This document shows, piece after piece, positions 11,074-16,200 of a stretch of 64,000 nucleotides of DNA. Positions within the stretch are counted from its first letter, which is position 1, and the number at the start of each line of letters is the position of its first letter. The position numbers and the translations under genes are program-made. Source of the stretch: an uncultured Bacteroidales bacterium (lineage in GTDB: Bacteria; Bacteroidota; Bacteroidia; Bacteroidales; UBA3663); assembly GCA_905235375.1 (NCBI GenBank), contig CAJOLH010000004.1:71141-135140 (forward strand), in the 5' to 3' direction. The notes under the pieces were generated by a model that was not told the origin of the DNA, ran no database searches, and saw only the letters and a program-made list of their open reading frames with translations.

Positions 11074-12507
11074 TCAGAAATGGCCCGTGTAGAAATCGGT
11101 GATGCGGCGGATGGCGCGGGCACAGACGGGACAAAAGTCCTGCACTTCGTTGATCTTCATGCGACATTCCTGGGCAGGGCGATAGCAGCCCTTGCTCTGG
11201 TAGCCTGCACCTTCGAATACACCCACCACCTGCGTGGCGGCATTCAGTTTCGCCAGGGCATCGGGGTTCTCGCGCGCCGTGCGATAGTCAGGTACGTTGG
11301 GGTCGAGAGGTGTGGGGATGGGCTGTCGTTTGGGCATCATGTCGGCCCACTTGCTGCCGAAGTTCTTCAATGTGGTCACGTTGGGTTCCCAAGGCTCCAC
11401 GTCGGCAGGGTACCATTCGGTGTCCATGTCGTCGTACGCATATTCGTCGGCAAGTCCTCCATACGAGTGGCCGAACTCATGCACGAAGACCTCTCGGAAC
11501 GTAGGATGGTCGCTTGTGGCGAAGGTAATCTGATTATAGATGCCTCCCCCACCATAGGTATCAGAGTTCACAAGCACCATGATGTGCTCGAAGGGAACAC
11601 CCGACAGGAGGTCGTAGATGGTGTGCATGTCCTGCGAAGTCAGATAGCGCTGGCTGTAGAAGGTGTCGTAGTGGGTGCGCACTGCCGTCTGTTTCCACAC
11701 GCCGCGATGCGGCACCGAAGGTCCTGCCTCGGGGCTTGGAGCAGCCACAGCCACCACATTGAAGCGATCCTTCAGGCTGGCAAAGGGTTCCCAGGCGAAG
11801 AGTGCATCCACGGCACGCTGGCAGTCGGAGTAGAACTTACCCATCTGCTGCTCAGTGTAGCCCTCGGCAAGGATGGCGAAATCGATGCAGTCGGCGACGT
11901 TCACATCCTCGAAGGGGTCGTACGGCGTAGCTTCGTAGTTACGCGAAGCCCGCGACTTCTCAGGCTTCCCTTCCTTGCACCCACCCTTCCACACATAGTG
12001 GAACGGGATGCCGTTGTCGCCAATGGGACGGATGAGAATGTCGGCAGGATCGACCGTGTGCGTGAGTGAGGCAATGACCTGCTGGTGATGGTTGGTCAGC
12101 GTGACCGAAACATCGACCTTCGCCTTCGGATAAGGGATGTTGTAGCTCGTTTCGAATGCACGGCTCAAGGTCTTCGCCTCGTCCTCGAGCAGCCACTCCT
12201 GAAAGAGGGTCGAGAACGTCCACACATAAATCACCTCCTGCGTCACATGGTCGCGCACAGTGAGCTGTCCGTTACCGTTCAGGAACTTCTCCGCGAGGCG
12301 GTTCCGTCGTCCTGCCCAGCGAGGCTGCTTGTAAAGTTGCTCCAAGTAGATGTGCTGCTCGCTGCTGTTGCCCGCAAACACATAGTCGAGGCGTAGTGTG
12401 TTGTCCTCAAAATATTGGTCGAACGACTGCGCGCGCACCTCTGTGAAGAGGCACGACATAAGGAATGACATCACGAAAAGCAGCAGAAATGGGCAGTTTT
12501 GTTTCAT
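11074..12507 (-). CDS. M64 family (IgA-peptidase-like) zinc metallopeptidase, secreted
   Basis: HEFGHSYGGLADEY zinc motif and signal peptide MKQNCPFLLLFVMSFLMSCLF. The track start at 12531 is a TTG lying inside the TATCTTTG -7 box, so I moved the start to the ATG at 12507. Confidence 0.8.
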   Translation of the reverse strand: MKQNCPFLLLFVMSFLMSCLFTEVRAQSFDQYFEDNTLRLDYVFAGNSSEQHIYLEQLYKQPRWAGRRNRLAEKFLNGNGQLTVRDHVTQEVIYVWTFSTLFQEWLLEDEAKTLSRAFETSYNIPYPKAKVDVSVTLTNHHQQVIASLTHTVDPADILIRPIGDNGIPFHYVWKGGCKEGKPEKSRASRNYEATPYDPFEDVNVADCIDFAILAEGYTEQQMGKFYSDCQRAVDALFAWEPFASLKDRFNVVAVAAPSPEAGPSVPHRGVWKQTAVRTHYDTFYSQRYLTSQDMHTIYDLLSGVPFEHIMVLVNSDTYGGGGIYNQITFATSDHPTFREVFVHEFGHSYGGLADEYAYDDMDTEWYPADVEPWEPNVTTLKNFGSKWADMMPKRQPIPTPLDPNVPDYRTARENPDALAKLNAATQVVGVFEGAGYQSKGCYRPAQECRMKINEVQDFCPVCARAIRRITDFYTGHF

Positions 12508-12536: not shown

Positions 12537-12691
12537 GGTTTTTTGCTGCGATAATCCAAATATATTTGAGCCATTTTCTGCAAGATTTACATCAAAAACG
12601 AGCCGTTTTTTATCGTAAAATATTAAAATCCAATATCCTATTTTAGTACAATTATTGATTATCAGCGCATTACGAATTATTATAACAAATA

Positions 12692-12746
12692 AAAATGAAA
12701 AAATGAAAAAACAAATTTACAAAAAAACAAAAAAACAAATTTACAA
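12692..12746. repeat. A-rich composite repeat (AAAATGAAAAAATGAAAAAACAAATTTACAAAAAAACAAAAAAACAAATTTACAA), left partner of an inverted pair
   Basis: Its reverse complement recurs at 15199-15253, sharing identical blocks of 24 and 26 nt offset by one CAAAAAAA unit. Confidence 0.85.
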
Positions 12747-12760
12747 TTTTTCCATCCTTC

Positions 12761-12975
12761 TCACTTCGTCAACTCCTGATACATCTCGAAGAGGCGGGCG
12801 ACGCAATCGGATTCGGTGAAACCTTTGACGGGGAAGCCGTAGGCGGCCATGACAGCGCGGTCGTTGTCCTGATGGGCTCGACGCAGTTCGGGGGGCATGG
12901 TCACTTCGTCATAGAGGTCAGCCAATGAACTGTCGGGATAGAGGGCGCGGGCGTCGAGGATGGCGCAAAGATACT
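12761..12975 (-). pseudogene. C-terminal stump of an MmeI-like (type IIG/IIL) restriction-modification DNA methyltransferase
   Basis: Reverse translation gives ILDARALYPDSSLADLYDEVTMPPELRRAHQDNDRAVMAAYGFPVKGFTESDCVARLFEMYQELTK followed by a stop. This is the characteristic C-terminus of class I SAM-dependent type IIG enzymes. There is no start codon, and similarity ends abruptly at about 12975 where AT-rich DNA begins. Confidence 0.75.
12966..12973 (-). promoter_or_regulatory. -7-like box TATCTTTG at the cassette / RM-stump junction, reading out into the C-terminal stump
   Basis: Exact TATCTTTG preceded by AT-rich DNA. May be fortuitous. Confidence 0.35.
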
Positions 12976-13030
12976 TCTTTTTTAATAATTCTCCTTTTTT
13001 ATGTTCTGTTTCTTAGGATGTAGAAGAAAG

Positions 13031-13087
13031 GCAAAATATTTTACTTGTTTTAACACTTTACAAGCTTTATCACTTGCAAAGTGTTAA
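13031..13087. repeat. direct repeat copy 1 with 10-bp palindrome arms TTAACACTTT / AAAGTGTTAA
   Basis: GCAAAATATTTTACTTGTTTTAACACTTTACAAGCTTTATCACTTGCAAAGTGTTAA, just 3' of the DUF3307 gene. Matches 14619-14663 and shares an identical 17-nt core TTAACACTTTACAAGCT. Confidence 0.85.
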
Positions 13088-13103
13088 ATACATATACCGC
13101 TCG

Positions 13104-13919
13104 TTACACAAGGAATGCTGCCAAGTCTATCTTCAGGACAAGAATCCCTAATGACAAGGCAATTGCCAGAGACAACAATGTTCCCGCCAAAACATATTCG
13201 GATTTTTCTCCTTCGGTAACTTGGCTAAAGCGTAAAATGGATTTTGCAGCAACAAGAAATCCGAGGGCTTCATATTGTGATATGATTACAAAAGCAAGCA
13301 TAAGTGCGCGTTCCACACAACCGATAAGGGCACCAGAGTGGAAATTACCATGCTCATCTTGATTATAATGGCTGCCTCCATCGCCATTCTCAGTTACTTC
13401 GCCTTTAATTGACGGATCTAGAGTCGTCGAAGGAACATTCACCTTGCATGCCTTCAAAATAAGTACCAATAGGATATTAGCTGGGCGTAATGCCAACAAC
13501 ATTGCAAGGCCTGTTTTCACCCACAACGGGTGATTGGTGCACAAATCTGTCACCCAAGGAAACTGCATCCAACAACCATTAACTGAAAACCAAAGATTAG
13601 CGACTACAATGATTACAGTGGAATGTAGGATTTGGTCACCCAAAAAAAGTACAATTTTGGAAATACAACACTTATTTTCCAAATAAGATTTGACCCCATC
13701 AATTACGAAATGGGATATGGCGATGATAAGAGCAAGCCACCAGGCACATCGACTCCATACTGCCAAAAAAGACAAGACAAGTATTATTAGGAAATGCAGA
13801 TATAATAATTTGCTCTTGAAATGTCGCAACATCTTATCCTTGCACATGCTGTCCCATTGCAAGTAAAAGTCCCCCAATATGTGGGCTACAATGAGGTTCA
13901 AAATCAATGGATTGATCAT
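13104..13919 (-). CDS. DUF3307 domain-containing polytopic membrane protein
   Basis: 271 aa with the three DUF3307 motifs (AHILGDFYLQ, SHFVIDGVK, LGDQILH), multiple hydrophobic segments, and a hydrophilic insert (DPSIKGEVTENGDGGSHYNQDEHGNFH). The ATG overlaps the upstream stop (ATGA). Confidence 0.8.
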   Translation of the reverse strand: MINPLILNLIVAHILGDFYLQWDSMCKDKMLRHFKSKLLYLHFLIILVLSFLAVWSRCAWWLALIIAISHFVIDGVKSYLENKCCISKIVLFLGDQILHSTVIIVVANLWFSVNGCWMQFPWVTDLCTNHPLWVKTGLAMLLALRPANILLVLILKACKVNVPSTTLDPSIKGEVTENGDGGSHYNQDEHGNFHSGALIGCVERALMLAFVIISQYEALGFLVAAKSILRFSQVTEGEKSEYVLAGTLLSLAIALSLGILVLKIDLAAFLV

Positions 13920-14569
13920 AAAAGTCTTGTTATTTTACGATAATACATAATAGCCTGTTCAATCGCATTCCAGCCAAGTGCATTTAGGGATTGATTGACC
14001 GCCGATACGGTAATTCCCATTTCTTCAGCTGTCTTTTTAGAATCCCCAGCCAAGATTCTTTTATACAGTGTCTTGCATTTGCTTGGAGTTGAATTATTCA
14101 AAAGAGAATTGACCAATGCAAGAATTATGTTTAATGGTTGCCTCACCTCATTATTTTTCATAGATATGGTCAAATAATATTTCTCATGCCCAACGAGGTT
14201 GTTCAATCCATGTCCGGAACGATATATAGCTTCACCATCCATGATATCCAATTCTTTATTGATCGTTTTCATTTCGCCTATGCCTATAGCGATTCTTAGA
14301 CCATACCTCTGGAAACGTTCCTCAATAATATTATCCTTGGGTTCAAAAGCCTTGGTCCATGCTTTTAATATCAGAGCCACCTCAAAAGCATCTTCCGGAT
14401 TCTCAAGGATGCATTCGATAGAGTCTCCTCTAACAATCCTTCCCCAGAACCCTTGGTATTTATTATCAAGTTGTAACAGGCATTTCTTTAGACCGATGTT
14501 ATATTCTACCATCGACTCACTTGATAGAGATCTGGAAGAAACTACATCAGCTGATATTGCAGCATACAT
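13916..14569 (-). CDS. SatD family protein (cyclase-like N-domain plus C-terminal helix-turn-helix)
   Basis: 217 aa. MYAAISADVVSSRSL...RIVRGDSIECIL...GIGIGEM resembles SatD (PF16264). The C-terminal TAEEMGITVSAVNQSLNALG looks like an HTH. ATG verified. AT-rich codon usage differs from the neighbours. Confidence 0.75.
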   Translation of the reverse strand: MYAAISADVVSSRSLSSESMVEYNIGLKKCLLQLDNKYQGFWGRIVRGDSIECILENPEDAFEVALILKAWTKAFEPKDNIIEERFQRYGLRIAIGIGEMKTINKELDIMDGEAIYRSGHGLNNLVGHEKYYLTISMKNNEVRQPLNIILALVNSLLNNSTPSKCKTLYKRILAGDSKKTAEEMGITVSAVNQSLNALGWNAIEQAIMYYRKITRLL

Positions 14570-14618
14570 ACTCTATATTCAATTTAGAAGTAAATTAAAA
14601 TTATTCGTTCAGATGCAA

Positions 14619-14667
14619 GCAAAATACTTGTATTAACACTTTACAAGCTCTAGCGCTTGCAAAAATA
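14619..14667. repeat. direct repeat copy 2 (overlaps the putative promoter/operator of the SatD operon)
   Basis: GCAAAATACTTGTATTAACACTTTACAAGCTCTAGCGCTTGCAAAAATA. Contains the CAAGC/GCTTG palindrome and ends in the minus-strand -7 box TATTTTTG. Confidence 0.85.
14660..14667 (-). promoter_or_regulatory. -7 promoter box TATTTTTG for the SatD/DUF3307 operon
   Basis: Matches the Bacteroides TAnnTTTG consensus, 91 nt upstream of the SatD ATG. A palindrome, CAAGCGCTAGAGCTTG on the transcribed strand, follows immediately. Confidence 0.55.
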
Positions 14668-14789
14668 TAAAATTTATTTATATTTTGAATAAAATCAATA
14701 CAATATTTAACAATATTTCACCGAAATTATATATAAATATATATTCTTTAACCATTGTGCTTCCGTTTCTCTCACTCCTTCACCAGGAA

Positions 14790-14978
14790 CAACAGTTCGG
14801 CTTGAGCAACAATATCCTTGCAGATCTATTCGATGAGCACCTTGGTGGGATGATATAGGCATCGATGAACGAAGATTGCGTAAGAGCTGCACCTGGTTCT
14901 CGAAAGTGAGGACGTCGAAGGGATTTTCCACTTCTCAGCGAACGCCTTTGCCGCTATCTTCTGCTTACTATCTTGCAT
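14790..14978 (-). pseudogene. N-terminal stump of the same MmeI-like RM methyltransferase (frameshifted, internal stop, internal deletion)
   Basis: Reverse strand from the ATG at 14976-14978 reads MQDSKQKIAAKAFAEKWK. After a frame change it reads ENPFDVLTFENQVQL, then SFIDAYII..KVLIE followed by a stop. These are the conserved N-terminal blocks of MmeI-family enzymes, scattered over three frames. Track ORF 14707..14931 is one fragment of it. Confidence 0.65.
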
Positions 14979-15002
14979 AATGGTATGATTTAATTAACGC
15001 CG

Positions 15003-15010
15003 CAAAGATA
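15003..15010 (-). promoter_or_regulatory. -7 box TATCTTTG (former promoter of the RM gene)
   Basis: Exact TATCTTTG 25 nt upstream of the pseudogene ATG at 14978. Confidence 0.55.
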
Positions 15011-15198
15011 CGAAATTTCAGCAACAACACCAAATAAACGAAACAAATTCTTCAGTAATTAGTGCATTTTTCGATTTCTTATTAGAGATTGAGCAAATAA
15101 TCGCAGCGTTGCAACTACATAAGGTCTATATAGTCTAAGTGTATGTAATAAAGCTATTTAACAATTAAGTAAAGACAGTTTCATCCATAAGGGCCAGC

Positions 15199-15253
15199 CT
15201 GTTTTTTTGTTTTTTTGTAAATTTGTTTTTTTGTTTTTTCATTTTTTCATTTT
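15199..15253. repeat. T-rich composite repeat, right partner of the inverted pair (reverse complement of 12692-12746)
   Basis: CTGTTTTTTTGTTTTTTTGTAAATTTGTTTTTTTGTTTTTTCATTTTTTCATTTT. Confidence 0.85.
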
Positions 15254-15360
15254 GGGGGGCAAATTAGTCTTAGGGGGGGTGCGTTTTAATGCAATAAATT
15301 TTAAATATTAAATATAATATATAAATTTTATATATTAAATATCGCGCGCGATGGCGAAAA

Positions 15361-15416
15361 CAAGAAAACAAAAAAACAAAAAAACAAAAAAACAAAAAAA
15401 CAAAAAAACAAATTTT
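15361..15416. repeat. (CAAAAAAA)n tandem octamer, about 6 units
   Basis: CAAGAAAACAAAAAAACAAAAAAACAAAAAAACAAAAAAACAAAAAAACAAATTTTTT. It is inverted relative to 15199-15253 across an AT-rich, partly palindromic core of about 105 nt. Confidence 0.9.
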
Positions 15417-15729: not shown

Positions 15730-16200
15730 TCTTCCGACAGACAAAGCTCCTCTTCCTTTTGCGGGAACATTGTGACAGCCGACAGAATACTTCCGCGAAA
15801 GGATGAAGAACTCTCACGCCCGACAGAGTACCCGATGCTACGGGATAGAATACTCCATCGCCCGACAGCGTACCCGATGCTACGGAATGACGTACTCCAT
15901 CGCCCGACATAGTACCTGCTTCAACTGCGGAAATACGCTAACGCCCGACATGGTACTTCCGCAATTCGCGCAAATATCGCGACAGCCGACAGAATACCCG
16001 ATGCTACGGAATGGTGTACTCCATCGCCCGACAGAGTACACGATGCTATCGGATGGAGTACCCTCACGCCCGACAGAGTACATGCCACAACTGCGGAAAC
16101 ATTCCGATGGCCGACAGAATACTTCCTCAGTTTGCGCAAGCATCGTAACAGCCGACAGCGTATTTGGTCCAATTTGTCACACACGACGGACAAAATGGCA
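15730..16200. repeat. tandem array A: about 11 units of 41-42 nt, each starting sCCGACAGnGTAC
   Basis: CCGACA(G/T) recurs at 15734, 15778, 15819, 15861, 15903, 15944, 15985, 16027, 16069, 16110 and 16151. Several units carry the internal inverted repeat GAGTAC...GTACTC. Confidence 0.9.

What the first reader, a model, noticed from the sequence alone, without database searches (positions are those of the whole stretch)
12978..14755. SatD-like (cyclase-fold + HTH) / DUF3307 membrane protein cassette inside a dead restriction locus: candidate uncharacterised signalling or defence module
Directly seen: two overlapping genes (ATGA coupling at 13916-13919), markedly AT-rich compared with every neighbour, lie exactly between the two RM stumps. 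The 217-aa protein has an N-terminal domain with MYAAISADVVSSRSL and RIVRGDSIECIL. These two acidic positions sit in a beta-alpha-beta context like the metal-binding Asp pair of class III nucleotidyl cyclase / GGDEF palm folds. It also has a C-terminal helix-turn-helix (TAEEMGITVSAVNQSLNALG). I recognise it as SatD family. The 271-aa partner carries the three His/Asp motifs of DUF3307 (AHILGDFYLQ, SHFVIDGVK, LGDQILH) in a multi-TM protein with a hydrophilic His/Asp-rich insert. Neither family has an established biochemical function. Inference: a nucleotide-cyclase-like sensor/regulator coupled to a membrane effector resembles CBASS- or Pycsar-type abortive-infection logic, and replacement of a restriction gene by another cargo is typical of defence-island turnover. 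No integrase or transposase accompanies it.
Basis: partly seen in the sequence, partly recalled or inferred. Interest (0 to 1): 0.78.

Follow-up and report, generated by a model that had tools for sequence, protein, structure and literature searches.

The report
Self-regulated cyclase-fold regulator plus membrane protein
A small, horizontally mobile two-gene unit encodes a DNA-binding regulator built on a nucleotide-cyclase fold and an uncharacterised membrane protein; it appears to control itself through a regular array of palindromes, and nothing yet shows it is a phage-defence system.

Summary
Two translationally coupled genes (13916-14569 and 13104-13919, minus strand; GC 0.40 against 0.53 in the flanks) sit between remnants of one MmeI-type restriction gene. 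The 2.7-kb island that holds them is absent from the closest genome.

The 217-aa protein misses Pfam SatD, but its family profile reaches bona fide SatD proteins. Its AlphaFold model (pLDDT 93) matches only class III nucleotidyl cyclases. D8 and D49 align with their metal-binding aspartates and are conserved family-wide. The C-terminus is a sigma-70-region-4/LuxR-type helix-turn-helix. The partner is a clear DUF3307 protein with no solved structural neighbour.

New here: 69 of 80 related loci carry 2-4 YAAG-N8-CTTR palindromes at a strict 29-nt phase upstream of the regulator gene, about 120-fold above background. The half-site changes between protein clades, and a Vibrio plasmid pair has a similarly phased array.

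I read the pair as an autoregulated transcription factor whose only co-transcribed output is the membrane protein. This differs from CBASS and Pycsar, where a diffusible signal activates the effector.

A defence role is unproven. PADLOC finds nothing in the pair, and the neighbouring genes are mixed. The pair is mobile. In Streptococcus pyogenes, satD is reported as accessory yet essential.

The parts
13916..14569 (-). 217-aa SatD-superfamily regulator. The N-terminal domain (about residues 1-136) has a class III cyclase fold, with D8 and D49 at the metal-binding positions. The C-terminal part (about residues 140-216) is a sigma-70-region-4/LuxR-type helix-turn-helix.
   Evidence: The ORF is. 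The AF2 model has pLDDT 93, and Foldseek PDB hits are all class III cyclases. hhalign places D8 on D256 and D49 on D300 of Rv1625c. Of 124 relatives, 33 hit Pfam SatD, 24 Sigma70_r4_2 and 18 GerE. dN/dS against L087 is 0.17.
13104..13919 (-). 271-aa DUF3307 polytopic membrane protein, translationally coupled to the regulator by an ATGA overlap. Its invariant polar residues are H13/D17, H42, H70/D74 and D95/H99, and it has a conserved C-terminal half.
   Evidence: Pfam PF11750 scores 84 bits against a cutoff of 23. The AF2 model is all-helical with pLDDT 79 and has no PDB fold neighbour. The N-terminal domain matches phrog_2470. dN/dS is 0.22. A DUF3307 gene lies directly downstream of the regulator in 75 of 76 informative loci.
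14616..14667 (-). Candidate operator array 1 and promoter. A Bacteroidetes -7 box (TATTTTTG, 14660-14667) abuts palindrome 1 (CAAG-N8-CTTG, 14644-14659). Palindrome 2 (14616-14630) has N7 spacing, a 1-nt deletion relative to L087.
13032..13076 (-). Partial second copy of the array, downstream of DUF3307. It has one intact palindrome (13061-13076) and a degenerate one 29 nt away (13032-13047).
   Evidence: (repeat D6). It is also present in L087 and L128 but absent downstream of the pair in the other loci inspected.
13042..13080 (.). 39-nt direct repeat (90% identical to 14625-14663) that brackets the two genes.
   Evidence: family D6.
14625..14663 (.). Second copy of the 39-nt direct repeat.
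   Evidence: family D6.
12761..12985 (-). C-terminal remnant (74 codons) of an MmeI-family type IIG restriction-modification gene.
   Evidence: It belongs to a very large set of short MmeI_TRD/MmeI_C remnants in Bacteroidales.
14780..14978 (-). Frameshifted N-terminal remnant of the same gene. The lower boundary is approximate.
   Evidence: Three-frame translations are. There is no significant HMM or phmmer match. The first 12 codons are identical to P0391, an N::C fusion. Window 14944-15011 is 91% identical to the 5' end of that mini-ORF in L128.
12691..12737 (.). Left arm of a 47-nt, 96% complementary A-rich inverted repeat that brackets the stumps and the cassette.
   Evidence: pair I2.
15200..15246 (.). 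Right arm of the 47-nt inverted repeat.
   Evidence: pair I2.
12611..15277 (.). Strain-specific island between the M64 peptidase gene and clpB. It is absent from the closest genome, L091, whose ClpB is 99% identical.
   Evidence: More distant relatives (L092-L095) have only about 0.2 kb between the two genes.

Best explanation
The cassette is a horizontally mobile, self-regulated two-gene operon.

Shown:
- The first product is a divergent SatD-superfamily protein. It has a class III cyclase-homology domain that keeps the two metal-binding aspartates, joined to a sigma-70-region-4/LuxR-type helix-turn-helix.
- The second product is a translationally coupled DUF3307 polytopic membrane protein with invariant His/Asp residues on its predicted helices.
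- The promoter region carries 16-bp palindromes at a fixed 28-29-nt phase. This feature is conserved across Bacteroidales and in a Vibrio plasmid, and the half-site differs between protein clades.

Inferred:
- The regulator binds these palindromes as dimers and controls its own operon. In the window's clade the array starts at the -7 box and covers the transcription start and leader, so binding should repress.
- The cyclase-like domain dimerises, binds a nucleotide with metal, and either senses it or turns it over. That would set DNA binding.
- The membrane protein is the only co-transcribed output. Its His/Asp cluster suggests a metal site.

I favour a conflict-type role (addiction or defence) slightly over a housekeeping envelope-stress role, but neither is shown.

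In this window the unit lies inside the remains of an MmeI-type restriction gene within a 2.7-kb strain-specific island. Both genes are under purifying selection.
For: - Fold: the AF2 model has pLDDT 93 and pTM 0.91. The 50 best PDB matches are all class III adenylyl, guanylyl or uridylyl cyclases, with probability up to 1.00 and TM about 0.6 on the 160-aa Ma1120.
- Metal pair: hhalign against Rv1625c puts D8 on D256 and D49 on D300. The Rv1625c sequence was verified as 100% identical to 4p2m_A. D49 is invariant and D8 at least 90% conserved in 124 representatives at 24-57% identity.
- Helix-turn-helix: Sigma70_r4_2 is hit in 24 and GerE in 18 of the 124.
- Pairing: DUF3307 lies directly downstream on the same strand, usually with a 4-nt overlap, in 75 of 76 informative loci. 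The same pair occurs on Segatella copri and Vibrio lentus plasmids.
- Operator array: 180 YAAG-N(7-8)-CTTR sites fall in 15.8 kb of upstream DNA (11.4 per kb) against 0.092 per kb elsewhere. 69 of 80 loci have at least one site and 64 have at least two, at positions such as -93, -64 and -35. Other half-sites keep the same phase: TAGCC, GATAA and ATCTA. The recognition-helix sequence differs between half-site groups. The -7 box abuts the first palindrome in 31 loci.
- Selection: dN/dS is 0.17 and 0.22 against a 91% identical relative.
- Mobility: pair GC stays near 0.375 while host flanks range from 0.34 to 0.57. An empty site exists in L091-L095.
- Repressor-like behaviour: S. pyogenes satD is an accessory gene (71% of genomes) yet essential in Tn-seq of three emm types (PMC11323703).
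- Decay pattern: four loci have an intact regulator with a broken or missing DUF3307, and none shows the reverse.
Against: - No binding, transcription or enzymatic data exist. The operator assignment rests on position, phasing and covariation, and the covariation is confounded by phylogeny.
- In 24 loci the array lies about 30 nt upstream of the -7 box, so the sign of regulation may differ between clades.
- By motif alignment (my inference, not a tool result), the cyclase transition-state Asn is replaced by an invariant Tyr (Y116). The Arg position (R120 in the family) is His in the window protein. Catalysis is therefore doubtful, particularly here.
- Foldseek E-values are only about 1e-3, and the hhalign probability is low (5%).
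- The window's second palindrome has lost one base.
- The decay asymmetry is 4 against 0 in metagenome-assembled genomes, where frameshifts can be assembly errors.
- I could not verify that streptococcal satD sits next to a DUF3307 gene, so the essentiality argument carries over only by family.
Confidence: 0.5

Rival explanations
1. Abortive-infection or defence module of the Pycsar/CBASS type. On infection the cyclase-like protein makes a nucleotide signal, which activates the DUF3307 membrane protein to kill or arrest the cell.
For: - The fold is class III cyclase, the fold of Pycsar PycC (8jsz is among the hits), and the metal-binding Asp pair is conserved.
- The partner is a membrane protein.
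- The cassette is mobile and lies in a restriction-gene remnant.
- Some relatives sit directly upstream of the known defence gene Ppl or of defence candidates (a Fic protein matching PDC-S72 and a 728-aa protein with an HSDR_N-like domain).
- By my count of the listed families, about 17-19 of 119 close neighbours hit PADLOC models, against about 10 of 119 genes at least five positions away.
- A stump identical at 99% sits next to GmrSD genes elsewhere.
Against: - PADLOC has no PycC, PycTM or CD-NTase match for either protein.
- DUF3307 has no cyclic-nucleotide-binding, SAVED, TIR or other sensor domain.
- The cyclase-like domain is fused to a helix-turn-helix, with phased palindromes upstream of the regulator gene. 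That points to transcription as the output.
- The catalytic Asn position holds a Tyr, and the Arg position is His in this copy (motif alignment is my inference).
- Many loci are embedded in housekeeping genes.
- There are no hits in phage or plasmid records for the regulator.
- The near-versus-far PADLOC contrast is small and was counted roughly.
Confidence: 0.2
2. Addiction-type (toxin/repressor) module. The regulator's main job is to keep a harmful membrane protein repressed. This stabilises the mobile cassette once it is acquired, and no phage is involved.
For: - satD is accessory yet essential in S. pyogenes.
- The operon appears autoregulated, with the array over the transcription start in the window's clade.
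- Decay is asymmetric: DUF3307 is lost while the regulator is kept in 4 loci, and the reverse is never seen.
- The cassette has a mobile, low-GC, context-free distribution, including IS-flanked plasmid copies.
- Stand-alone DUF3307 domains occur in phages as morons (PMC8504454).
Against: - Toxicity of DUF3307 has not been tested.
- Both genes are under purifying selection, which does not by itself argue for or against addiction.
- The cassette has a single regulator gene and no obvious labile antitoxin.
- Evidence from streptococci may not transfer.
- L049 keeps the regulator alone with its array, which suggests the regulator may have other targets.
Confidence: 0.25
3. Housekeeping envelope-stress or acid-stress regulon. 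The pair senses a metabolic nucleotide or metal state and adjusts a membrane enzyme or transporter, as the original name (secretion and acid tolerance) implies.
For: - The family is large and old: 1343 representative clusters at E<=0.001, with pairs in Bacteroidota and Gammaproteobacteria and a possible motif-level relative on a Bacillus plasmid.
- Many loci lie among housekeeping genes such as AhpC, HAD, MsrA, UvrA, GroEL and RumA.
- The literature links the S. mutans sat genes with acid tolerance (cited).
Against: - Distribution is patchy and the closest genome lacks the pair.
- GC is constant and foreign to the hosts.
- No conserved third gene or syntenic context exists.
- From memory, the S. 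mutans phenotype was attributed mainly to ffh. I could not read that paper.
Confidence: 0.25
4. Inert passenger. The cassette decays along with the dead restriction gene and has no current function.
For: - In the window copy, R120 is replaced by His and the second palindrome has lost a base.
- It sits among pseudogene fragments.
Against: - Both ORFs are intact.
- dN/dS is 0.17 and 0.22 since the split from L087, while the flanking restriction gene has been reduced to differently sized stumps in three strains.
Confidence: 0.03

Closest known systems
SatD family (Pfam PF16264) with an adjacent DUF3307 (PF11750) gene
   Same: The architecture is the same: an alpha/beta N-terminal domain plus a C-terminal helix-turn-helix, about 215-230 aa, followed by a DUF3307 membrane protein. 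A profile of the window's clade reaches Pfam-positive SatD proteins at about E 1e-22.
   Different: The window protein and most of its Bacteroidales clade fall below the Pfam model and are annotated as hypothetical. Neither family has a known biochemical function. I found no description of the cyclase fold or of the phased palindromes in the searchable literature.
Class III nucleotidyl cyclases (for example Rv1625c, Rv1264, Ma1120) and the Pycsar PycC cyclases
   Same: The fold is shared. The two metal-binding aspartates sit in the FxDIxGFT-like and GDxxM-like strands. By motif comparison (inference), the Arg of the RxGxxxG strand (R92) is conserved, and so is an Arg at the transition-state position in most relatives.
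   Different: There is no Pfam Guanylate_cyc match. A Tyr stands in place of the catalytic Asn, and His in place of the Arg in this copy. No substrate-specifying pair can be identified. The domain is fused to a DNA-binding domain rather than to sensor or membrane modules. No activity has been shown.
One-component transcription factors with a LuxR/GerE or sigma-70-region-4 helix-turn-helix, and regulators of mobile conflict systems (C proteins of restriction systems, CapW, BrxR)
   Same: It is a small dimer-type regulator. The palindromic sites lie over or next to its own promoter, and it travels with the gene it controls.
   Different: The sensor domain is a cyclase-homology domain. The sites form a strictly 28-29-nt phased array of 2-4 palindromes. 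The only cargo is a single membrane protein.
MmeI-family type IIG restriction-modification enzymes (context only)
   Same: The flanking stumps derive from such a gene.
   Different: Only about 65 N-terminal codons (frameshifted) and 74 C-terminal codons remain, so no enzyme can be made. The cassette has no functional link with MmeI in the 80 other loci.

Membership tests
SatD family (PF16264) | Match to the Pfam model above its gathering score (29 bits) | tested here: not met
   The window protein gives no hit even at E<=10. The 60%-identical homolog P0077 reaches 28 bits.
SatD family (PF16264) | Homology to bona fide members by profile search | tested here: met
   The profile of alignment A1 finds P0370 and P0389 at about E 1e-22 to 1e-23. 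Both pass Pfam SatD. Of 124 aligned representatives, 33 hit SatD. NCBI names P0370 'SatD family protein'.
SatD family (PF16264) | Architecture (N-terminal alpha/beta domain plus C-terminal helix-turn-helix) and a DUF3307 neighbour | tested here: met
DUF3307 (PF11750) | Match to the Pfam model above its gathering score, with the His/Asp motifs | tested here: met
   84.2 bits against a cutoff of 23, E 9.6e-24. H13, D17, H70, D74, D95 and H99 are invariant in alignment A3.
Class III nucleotidyl cyclase | Cyclase-homology-domain fold | tested here: met
   The top 50 Foldseek PDB hits are all class III cyclases. The model has pLDDT 93.
Class III nucleotidyl cyclase | Two metal-binding aspartates | tested here: met
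   D8 aligns with D256 and D49 with D300 of Rv1625c. D49 is invariant and D8 at least 90% conserved.
Class III nucleotidyl cyclase | Transition-state Asn/Arg pair and substrate-specifying residues | tested here: inconclusive
   The hhalign alignment stops before this region. By motif comparison (inference), Y116 occupies the Asn position and R120 the Arg position. R120 is His in the window. No Lys/Asp or Glu/Cys specificity pair is evident.
Class III nucleotidyl cyclase | Sequence-model match (Pfam Guanylate_cyc) and PDB sequence similarity | tested here: not met
Class III nucleotidyl cyclase | Cyclase activity | not testable with these tools
   This needs an enzyme assay or LC-MS.
Pycsar | PycC cyclase plus an effector carrying a cyclic-nucleotide-binding domain | tested here: not met
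   PADLOC has no PycC or PycTM match for either protein. DUF3307 has no cNMP-binding domain in Pfam. Similarity to a uridylate cyclase (8jsz) is at fold level only.
CBASS | CD-NTase (SMODS) cyclase plus a signal-activated effector | tested here: not met
   The fold is class III cyclase and not CD-NTase. There are no PADLOC or Pfam matches.
Known defence systems in general (PADLOC 2.0) | Any model match in the pair | tested here: not met
   The only hit is a spurious Cas8a match at E 0.004.
MmeI-type IIG restriction-modification (flanking stumps) | C-terminal domain homology | tested here: met
MmeI-type IIG restriction-modification (flanking stumps) | Intact nuclease, methyltransferase and TRD domains | tested here: not met
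   Only stumps remain.
Autoregulated repressor/toxic-cargo (addiction) modules | The regulator binds its own promoter, and the cargo is toxic when derepressed | not testable with these tools
   Support is indirect: phased palindromes at the promoter and the accessory-but-essential status of S. pyogenes satD.

The most novel reading that the evidence does not exclude
SatD proteins form a previously unrecognised class of one-component regulators. In them, a class III cyclase-homology domain that binds or makes a nucleotide gates binding to a 28-29-nt phased array of palindromes. Together with their intramembrane His/Asp partner (DUF3307), they form a self-contained mobile conflict module, either addiction or abortive infection. 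This module spreads between Bacteroidales genomes and plasmids without any recombinase of its own.
Probability: 0.3. Interest if true: 0.72.

Novelty: new member of a known kind. Interest (0 to 1): 0.5.

Why it matters
SatD and DUF3307 are widespread catalogued families with no known biochemistry. One study reports satD as the only accessory gene scored essential in Streptococcus pyogenes.

This analysis gives three concrete handles on them:
- a confident cyclase-homology fold with the metal site intact;
- a DNA-binding domain with a clear candidate operator, in the form of phased palindromes conserved across phyla;
- evidence that the pair moves as a unit.

These turn a 'function unknown' pair into a set of direct experiments: footprinting, nucleotide binding, and toxicity of the membrane partner.

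The analysis also shows that the Bacteroidales branch escapes the current Pfam and NCBI models. It further shows that MmeI-type remnants are recurrent sites of gene turnover in rumen and gut Bacteroidales.

Tried and rejected
- **Direct family scans of the 217-aa protein.** Pfam, NCBIfam, PADLOC and PHROGs gave nothing meaningful.
- **Sequence search of PDB.** Profiles of both families found no relatives.
- **DUF3307 fold search in PDB.** No neighbour was found; the best E was 1.4.
- **BFVD fold search for the regulator.** It returned only weak GGDEF and sigma-factor hits.
- **phmmer of the reconstructed N-stump against PDB.** MmeI was not retrieved. The stump was instead tied to the gene through P0391 and P0476.
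- **Idea that the 882-aa protein downstream of some pairs was an intact MmeI.** Rejected: it is a PHP-ATPase matching Ppl.
- **Idea that the pair generally associates with MmeI.** Rejected: 0 of 80 loci have a stump nearby.
- **Search for further phased arrays within 10 kb, as a possible regulon.** None was found.
- **Broader locus retrieval with a distant SatD alignment or a single distant protein.** The first attempt failed and the second gave one locus.
- **tblastn of the regulator in phage and plasmid collections.** No hits.
- **Rfam on the region.** No hits.
- **Sigma-70 promoter and terminator scan.** Uninformative for Bacteroidetes.
- **Literature.** Searches for SatD or DUF3307 with cyclase or defence terms returned nothing relevant. 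The original sat operon paper is not held.
Full report
**1. The observation**

ORF listing and sequence reading confirm two minus-strand genes. One encodes a 217-aa protein (13916-14569) and the other a 271-aa protein (13104-13919). GC falls to 0.37-0.40 across the pair, against 0.55-0.60 in the flanking genes. The pair averages 0.396 and its flanks 0.529.

Downstream of the pair, the ORF at 12761-12925 extends as homology to 12985. It matches Pfam MmeI_C (2.7e-14), PADLOC type IIG restriction-methyltransferase models, and residues 838-903 of the MmeI crystal structure chain (E 1.6e-12).

Upstream, the reading frame that starts at 14978 (MQDSKQKIAAKAFAEKWK...) is broken by several frameshifts. 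It gives no significant match to MmeI models or to PDB. It still belongs to the same former gene. A protein from another metagenome, P0391, consists of exactly those first 12 residues joined in frame to the same MmeI_C tail. A related mini-ORF, P0476, carries a weak MmeI_N hit plus MmeI_C.

No integrase or transposase lies within 10 kb. The neighbours are clpB, glyA, an M64 peptidase, DUF2851 and dapB, among others.

**2. The island**

Using the M64 peptidase as an anchor, I fetched the same region from related genomes. In four relatives (L092-L095), clpB and the peptidase gene are divergent neighbours about 0.2 kb apart. In the closest genome, L091 (ClpB 99% identical), they are 1 kb apart. 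L091 shares the tandem repeats next to clpB but has neither the stumps nor the cassette.

Window 12611-15277 is therefore a strain-specific insertion. It is bracketed by a 47-nt, 96% complementary A-rich inverted repeat at 12691-12737 and 15200-15246.

A metagenomic relative at 91% nucleotide identity, L087, has the same stump-cassette-stump order but a larger deletion of the C-terminal stump. A third relative, L128, has the DUF3307 gene followed by the complete N12::C69 mini-ORF with its promoter. The restriction gene has thus been eroded differently in three lineages.

Over the same period the two cassette genes stayed intact. dN/dS between the window and L087 is 0.17 for the regulator and 0.22 for the membrane protein.

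The exact order of these rearrangements is not resolved. The window carries the promoter fragment GTATCTTTGCG twice, at 15001-15011 and 12965-12975, which points to recombination between repeated promoter sequences.

**3. The 217-aa protein**

It does not match Pfam SatD, NCBIfam or PADLOC. It has 236 close homologs, nearly all unnamed and from rumen and gut Bacteroidales.

A profile built from 23 of these homologs was searched against 1.84 billion representatives. It found 1343 proteins at E<=0.001. Distant ones such as P0370 and P0389 pass the Pfam SatD threshold. Of 124 aligned representatives, 33 hit SatD, 24 hit Sigma70_r4_2 and 18 hit GerE. The protein is therefore a divergent SatD-superfamily member that current models miss.

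The AlphaFold model built from the alignment is confident (pLDDT 93, pTM 0.91). Foldseek against PDB returns only class III nucleotidyl cyclases in the top 50, including Rv1264, Ma1120, Rv1625c, soluble guanylate cyclase and a Pycsar-type uridylate cyclase. E-values are modest (from 1e-3), but probabilities reach 1.00 and TM is about 0.6 on the 160-residue Ma1120.

I checked that the Rv1625c catalytic-domain sequence I supplied is identical to PDB 4p2m_A. A profile-sequence alignment then places D8 on D256 and D49 on D300, the two metal-binding aspartates. The statistical support is weak (E 0.007). D49 is invariant and D8 at least 90% conserved across the 124 representatives, as are R92, G98, G112, A114 and G119.

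The following points are my own motif comparison, not a tool result:
- LRIAIGIG corresponds to the cyclase (L/V)R(I/V)G(I/L)HxG strand.
- DGEAIYRSGR corresponds to GDxVNxAxR.
- The catalytic Asn position is therefore a conserved Tyr.
- The transition-state Arg is kept in the family but is His in the window copy.

The domain looks able to bind metal and nucleotide. Whether it catalyses anything is open.

**4. The 271-aa protein**

It is a clear DUF3307 member (84 bits). H13/D17, H42, H70/D74 and D95/H99 are invariant on predicted helices, and a second conserved half carries the HGNFHSG..LIG..ER and KSILRF...EKSEYVL motifs.

The model is all-helical (pLDDT 79, lower in the C-terminal half). It has no structural neighbour in PDB and no sequence relative there. 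Its N-terminal domain matches a PHROG membrane-protein family filed under morons and host takeover. A jumbo Ralstonia phage is reported to encode a 134-aa DUF3307 protein.

**5. The pair is a unit**

In 80 loci from GTDB species representatives, all Bacteroidales, a DUF3307 gene follows the regulator gene directly on the same strand, mostly with a 4-nt overlap. Allowing for contig ends and one ORF-calling miss, this holds in 75 of 76 informative loci.

The same pair occurs on a Segatella copri plasmid and on a conjugative Vibrio lentus plasmid. There the upstream 'hypothetical protein' scores 1e-47 and 5e-40 against my SatD-superfamily profile, and both copies lie near insertion sequences.

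**6. A phased palindrome array**

Reading the upstream regions showed repeated palindromes. Quantified, the pattern YAAG-N(7-8)-CTTR occurs 180 times in the 15.8 kb lying within 200 nt upstream of the regulator genes (11.4 per kb). Elsewhere in the same loci it occurs 107 times in 1.17 Mb (0.092 per kb). Of the 80 loci, 69 have at least one site and 64 at least two. Sites sit at a strict 29-nt spacing, for example -93, -64 and -35.

The window's clade uses CAAG...CTTG, and more distant clades use TAAG...CTTA. Loci without this motif have other palindromes at the same phase: GATAA-N7-TTATC and ATCTA-N8-TAGAT. The Vibrio plasmid has three TAGCC-N6-GGCTA sites 28 nt apart. The recognition-helix region of the helix-turn-helix differs between these groups.

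No second phased array exists within 10 kb in any locus. In 31 loci, including the window's clade, the Bacteroidetes -7 box (TAnnTTTG) directly abuts the first palindrome, so the array covers the transcription start and leader. In 24 loci the array ends about 30 nt upstream of the -7 box.

In the window:
- site 1 (14644-14659) is intact;
- site 2 (14616-14630) has lost one base relative to L087;
- a partial second array (13061-13076 plus a degenerate site at 13032-13047) lies downstream of DUF3307, which accounts for the 39-nt direct repeat that brackets the genes.

The simplest reading is that these palindromes are the regulator's own operators.

**7. Mobility and context**

In the window's clade the pair keeps a GC near 0.375 while host flanks range from 0.34 to 0.57. 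In 45 of 66 loci the pair is more than 5 points below its flanks.

The 119 non-redundant neighbours within two genes hit 173 different Pfam families, none in more than four proteins, so there is no third conserved gene. They include housekeeping genes, two integrases and some conflict-system genes.

Some pairs are immediately followed by defence or defence-candidate genes: a PHP-ATPase matching Ppl, a Fic protein matching PDC-S72, and a protein with an HSDR_N-like domain. Others sit among AhpC, HAD, MsrA, UvrA or GroEL genes.

At E<=1e-10, roughly 17-19 of the 119 near neighbours hit PADLOC models, against roughly 10 of 119 genes lying at least five positions away. This count is rough, made from family tables in which one protein can hit several models. 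None of the 80 loci has an MmeI stump within 10 kb.

**8. Literature**

The searchable library contains nothing on the biochemistry of SatD or DUF3307.

One Tn-seq meta-analysis reports that satD is the only accessory gene of Streptococcus pyogenes (present in 71% of genomes) that scores as essential in all three emm types tested. Repressors and antidotes of harmful neighbouring genes behave this way.

In the same direction, four loci keep an intact regulator beside a frameshifted or missing DUF3307 (L024, L049, L055, L058). One has both genes broken (L078), and none has a broken regulator beside an intact DUF3307. The numbers are small, and these are metagenome assemblies.

**9. Conclusion**

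The mechanistic analogy needs changing.

The visible logic of this pair is not that a cyclase makes a diffusible signal which activates an effector. It is a DNA-binding cyclase-homology protein that controls its own two-gene operon, with the DUF3307 membrane protein as the only co-transcribed output.

Whether the biological role is defence, addiction or stress adaptation cannot be settled with sequence data. I put a conflict-type role at roughly 0.4-0.45 in total (defence 0.2, addiction 0.25) and a housekeeping role at about 0.25.

The pair is a new, model-escaping member of two catalogued but uncharacterised families. The phased operator array and the confirmed cyclase fold are the useful new facts.

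Noticed in passing
window 12761-12985; proteins P0391-P0510: The closest homologs of the MmeI_C stump are more than 2000 short proteins (70-130 aa, MmeI_TRD tail plus MmeI_C, 74-99% identical among the 120 listed) from several Bacteroidales families, mostly on short contigs. Some are in-frame N::C mini-ORFs (P0391, P0476). One that is 99% identical sits next to two GmrSD genes. This looks like a recurrent hotspot or remnant shared by many strains.
   Followed up: partly
L128:600-1010 compared with window 12765-15011: In another strain the order is DUF3307, second palindrome array, then the promoter and N12::C69 mini-ORF. In the window and L087 the N-stump lies upstream of the cassette. The window carries GTATCTTTGCG at both 15001-15011 and 12965-12975. 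The order of the rearrangements is unresolved.
   Followed up: partly
window 15760-16167: A 41/42-nt tandem repeat array (with a 166-nt higher-order unit) lies between the island and clpB. It is also present in the closest genome, L091. It creates spurious ORFs on both strands and has no Rfam match.
   Followed up: no
window 12691-12746, 15200-15253, 15357-15412: A-rich octamer repeats (AAAACAAA and its complement) form 47-54-nt inverted repeats around and beside the island. L091 has different A/T-rich low-complexity sequence at the same place.
   Followed up: no
L008:2565-7523 (also L009, L010): A 1652-aa protein with no Pfam or PADLOC match lies directly downstream of the pair on the same strand in three species.
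   Followed up: no
L001, L002, L013 (for example L002:11514-14162): An 882-aa PHP-domain/SMC-like ATPase matching the PADLOC Ppl model (2.5e-31) lies directly downstream of the pair.
   Followed up: partly
proteins P0243, P0245, P0244, P0248, P0254: Some SatD-like domains are fused to TPR repeats. Others are fused to 250-400-aa C-terminal extensions with no Pfam match.
   Followed up: no
protein P0533 (cluster of P0300): A SatD-like protein of Bacteroides stercorirosoris, seen on 476 contigs, is named 'fumarate hydratase' in UniRef and NCBI. This is probably a mis-annotation.
   Followed up: no
L049:9968-10753: This locus keeps the SatD-like gene and its palindromes but has no DUF3307 gene within the 20-kb locus.
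   Followed up: no
L082:3028-3404 compared with window near 12434: A metagenomic contig that is 99.6% identical across the island diverges from the window just inside the start of the M64 peptidase gene. This is either strain variation or an assembly chimera.
   Followed up: no
L133:3314-5228 (Bacillus plasmid): A 359-aa DUF3307 protein is preceded by a 262-aa protein that has SatD-like motifs (FIMDVTNST, RMGDEILLV) but does not score against my profile. It may be a remote version of the pair in Bacillota. It lies next to type VII secretion toxin genes.
   Followed up: no
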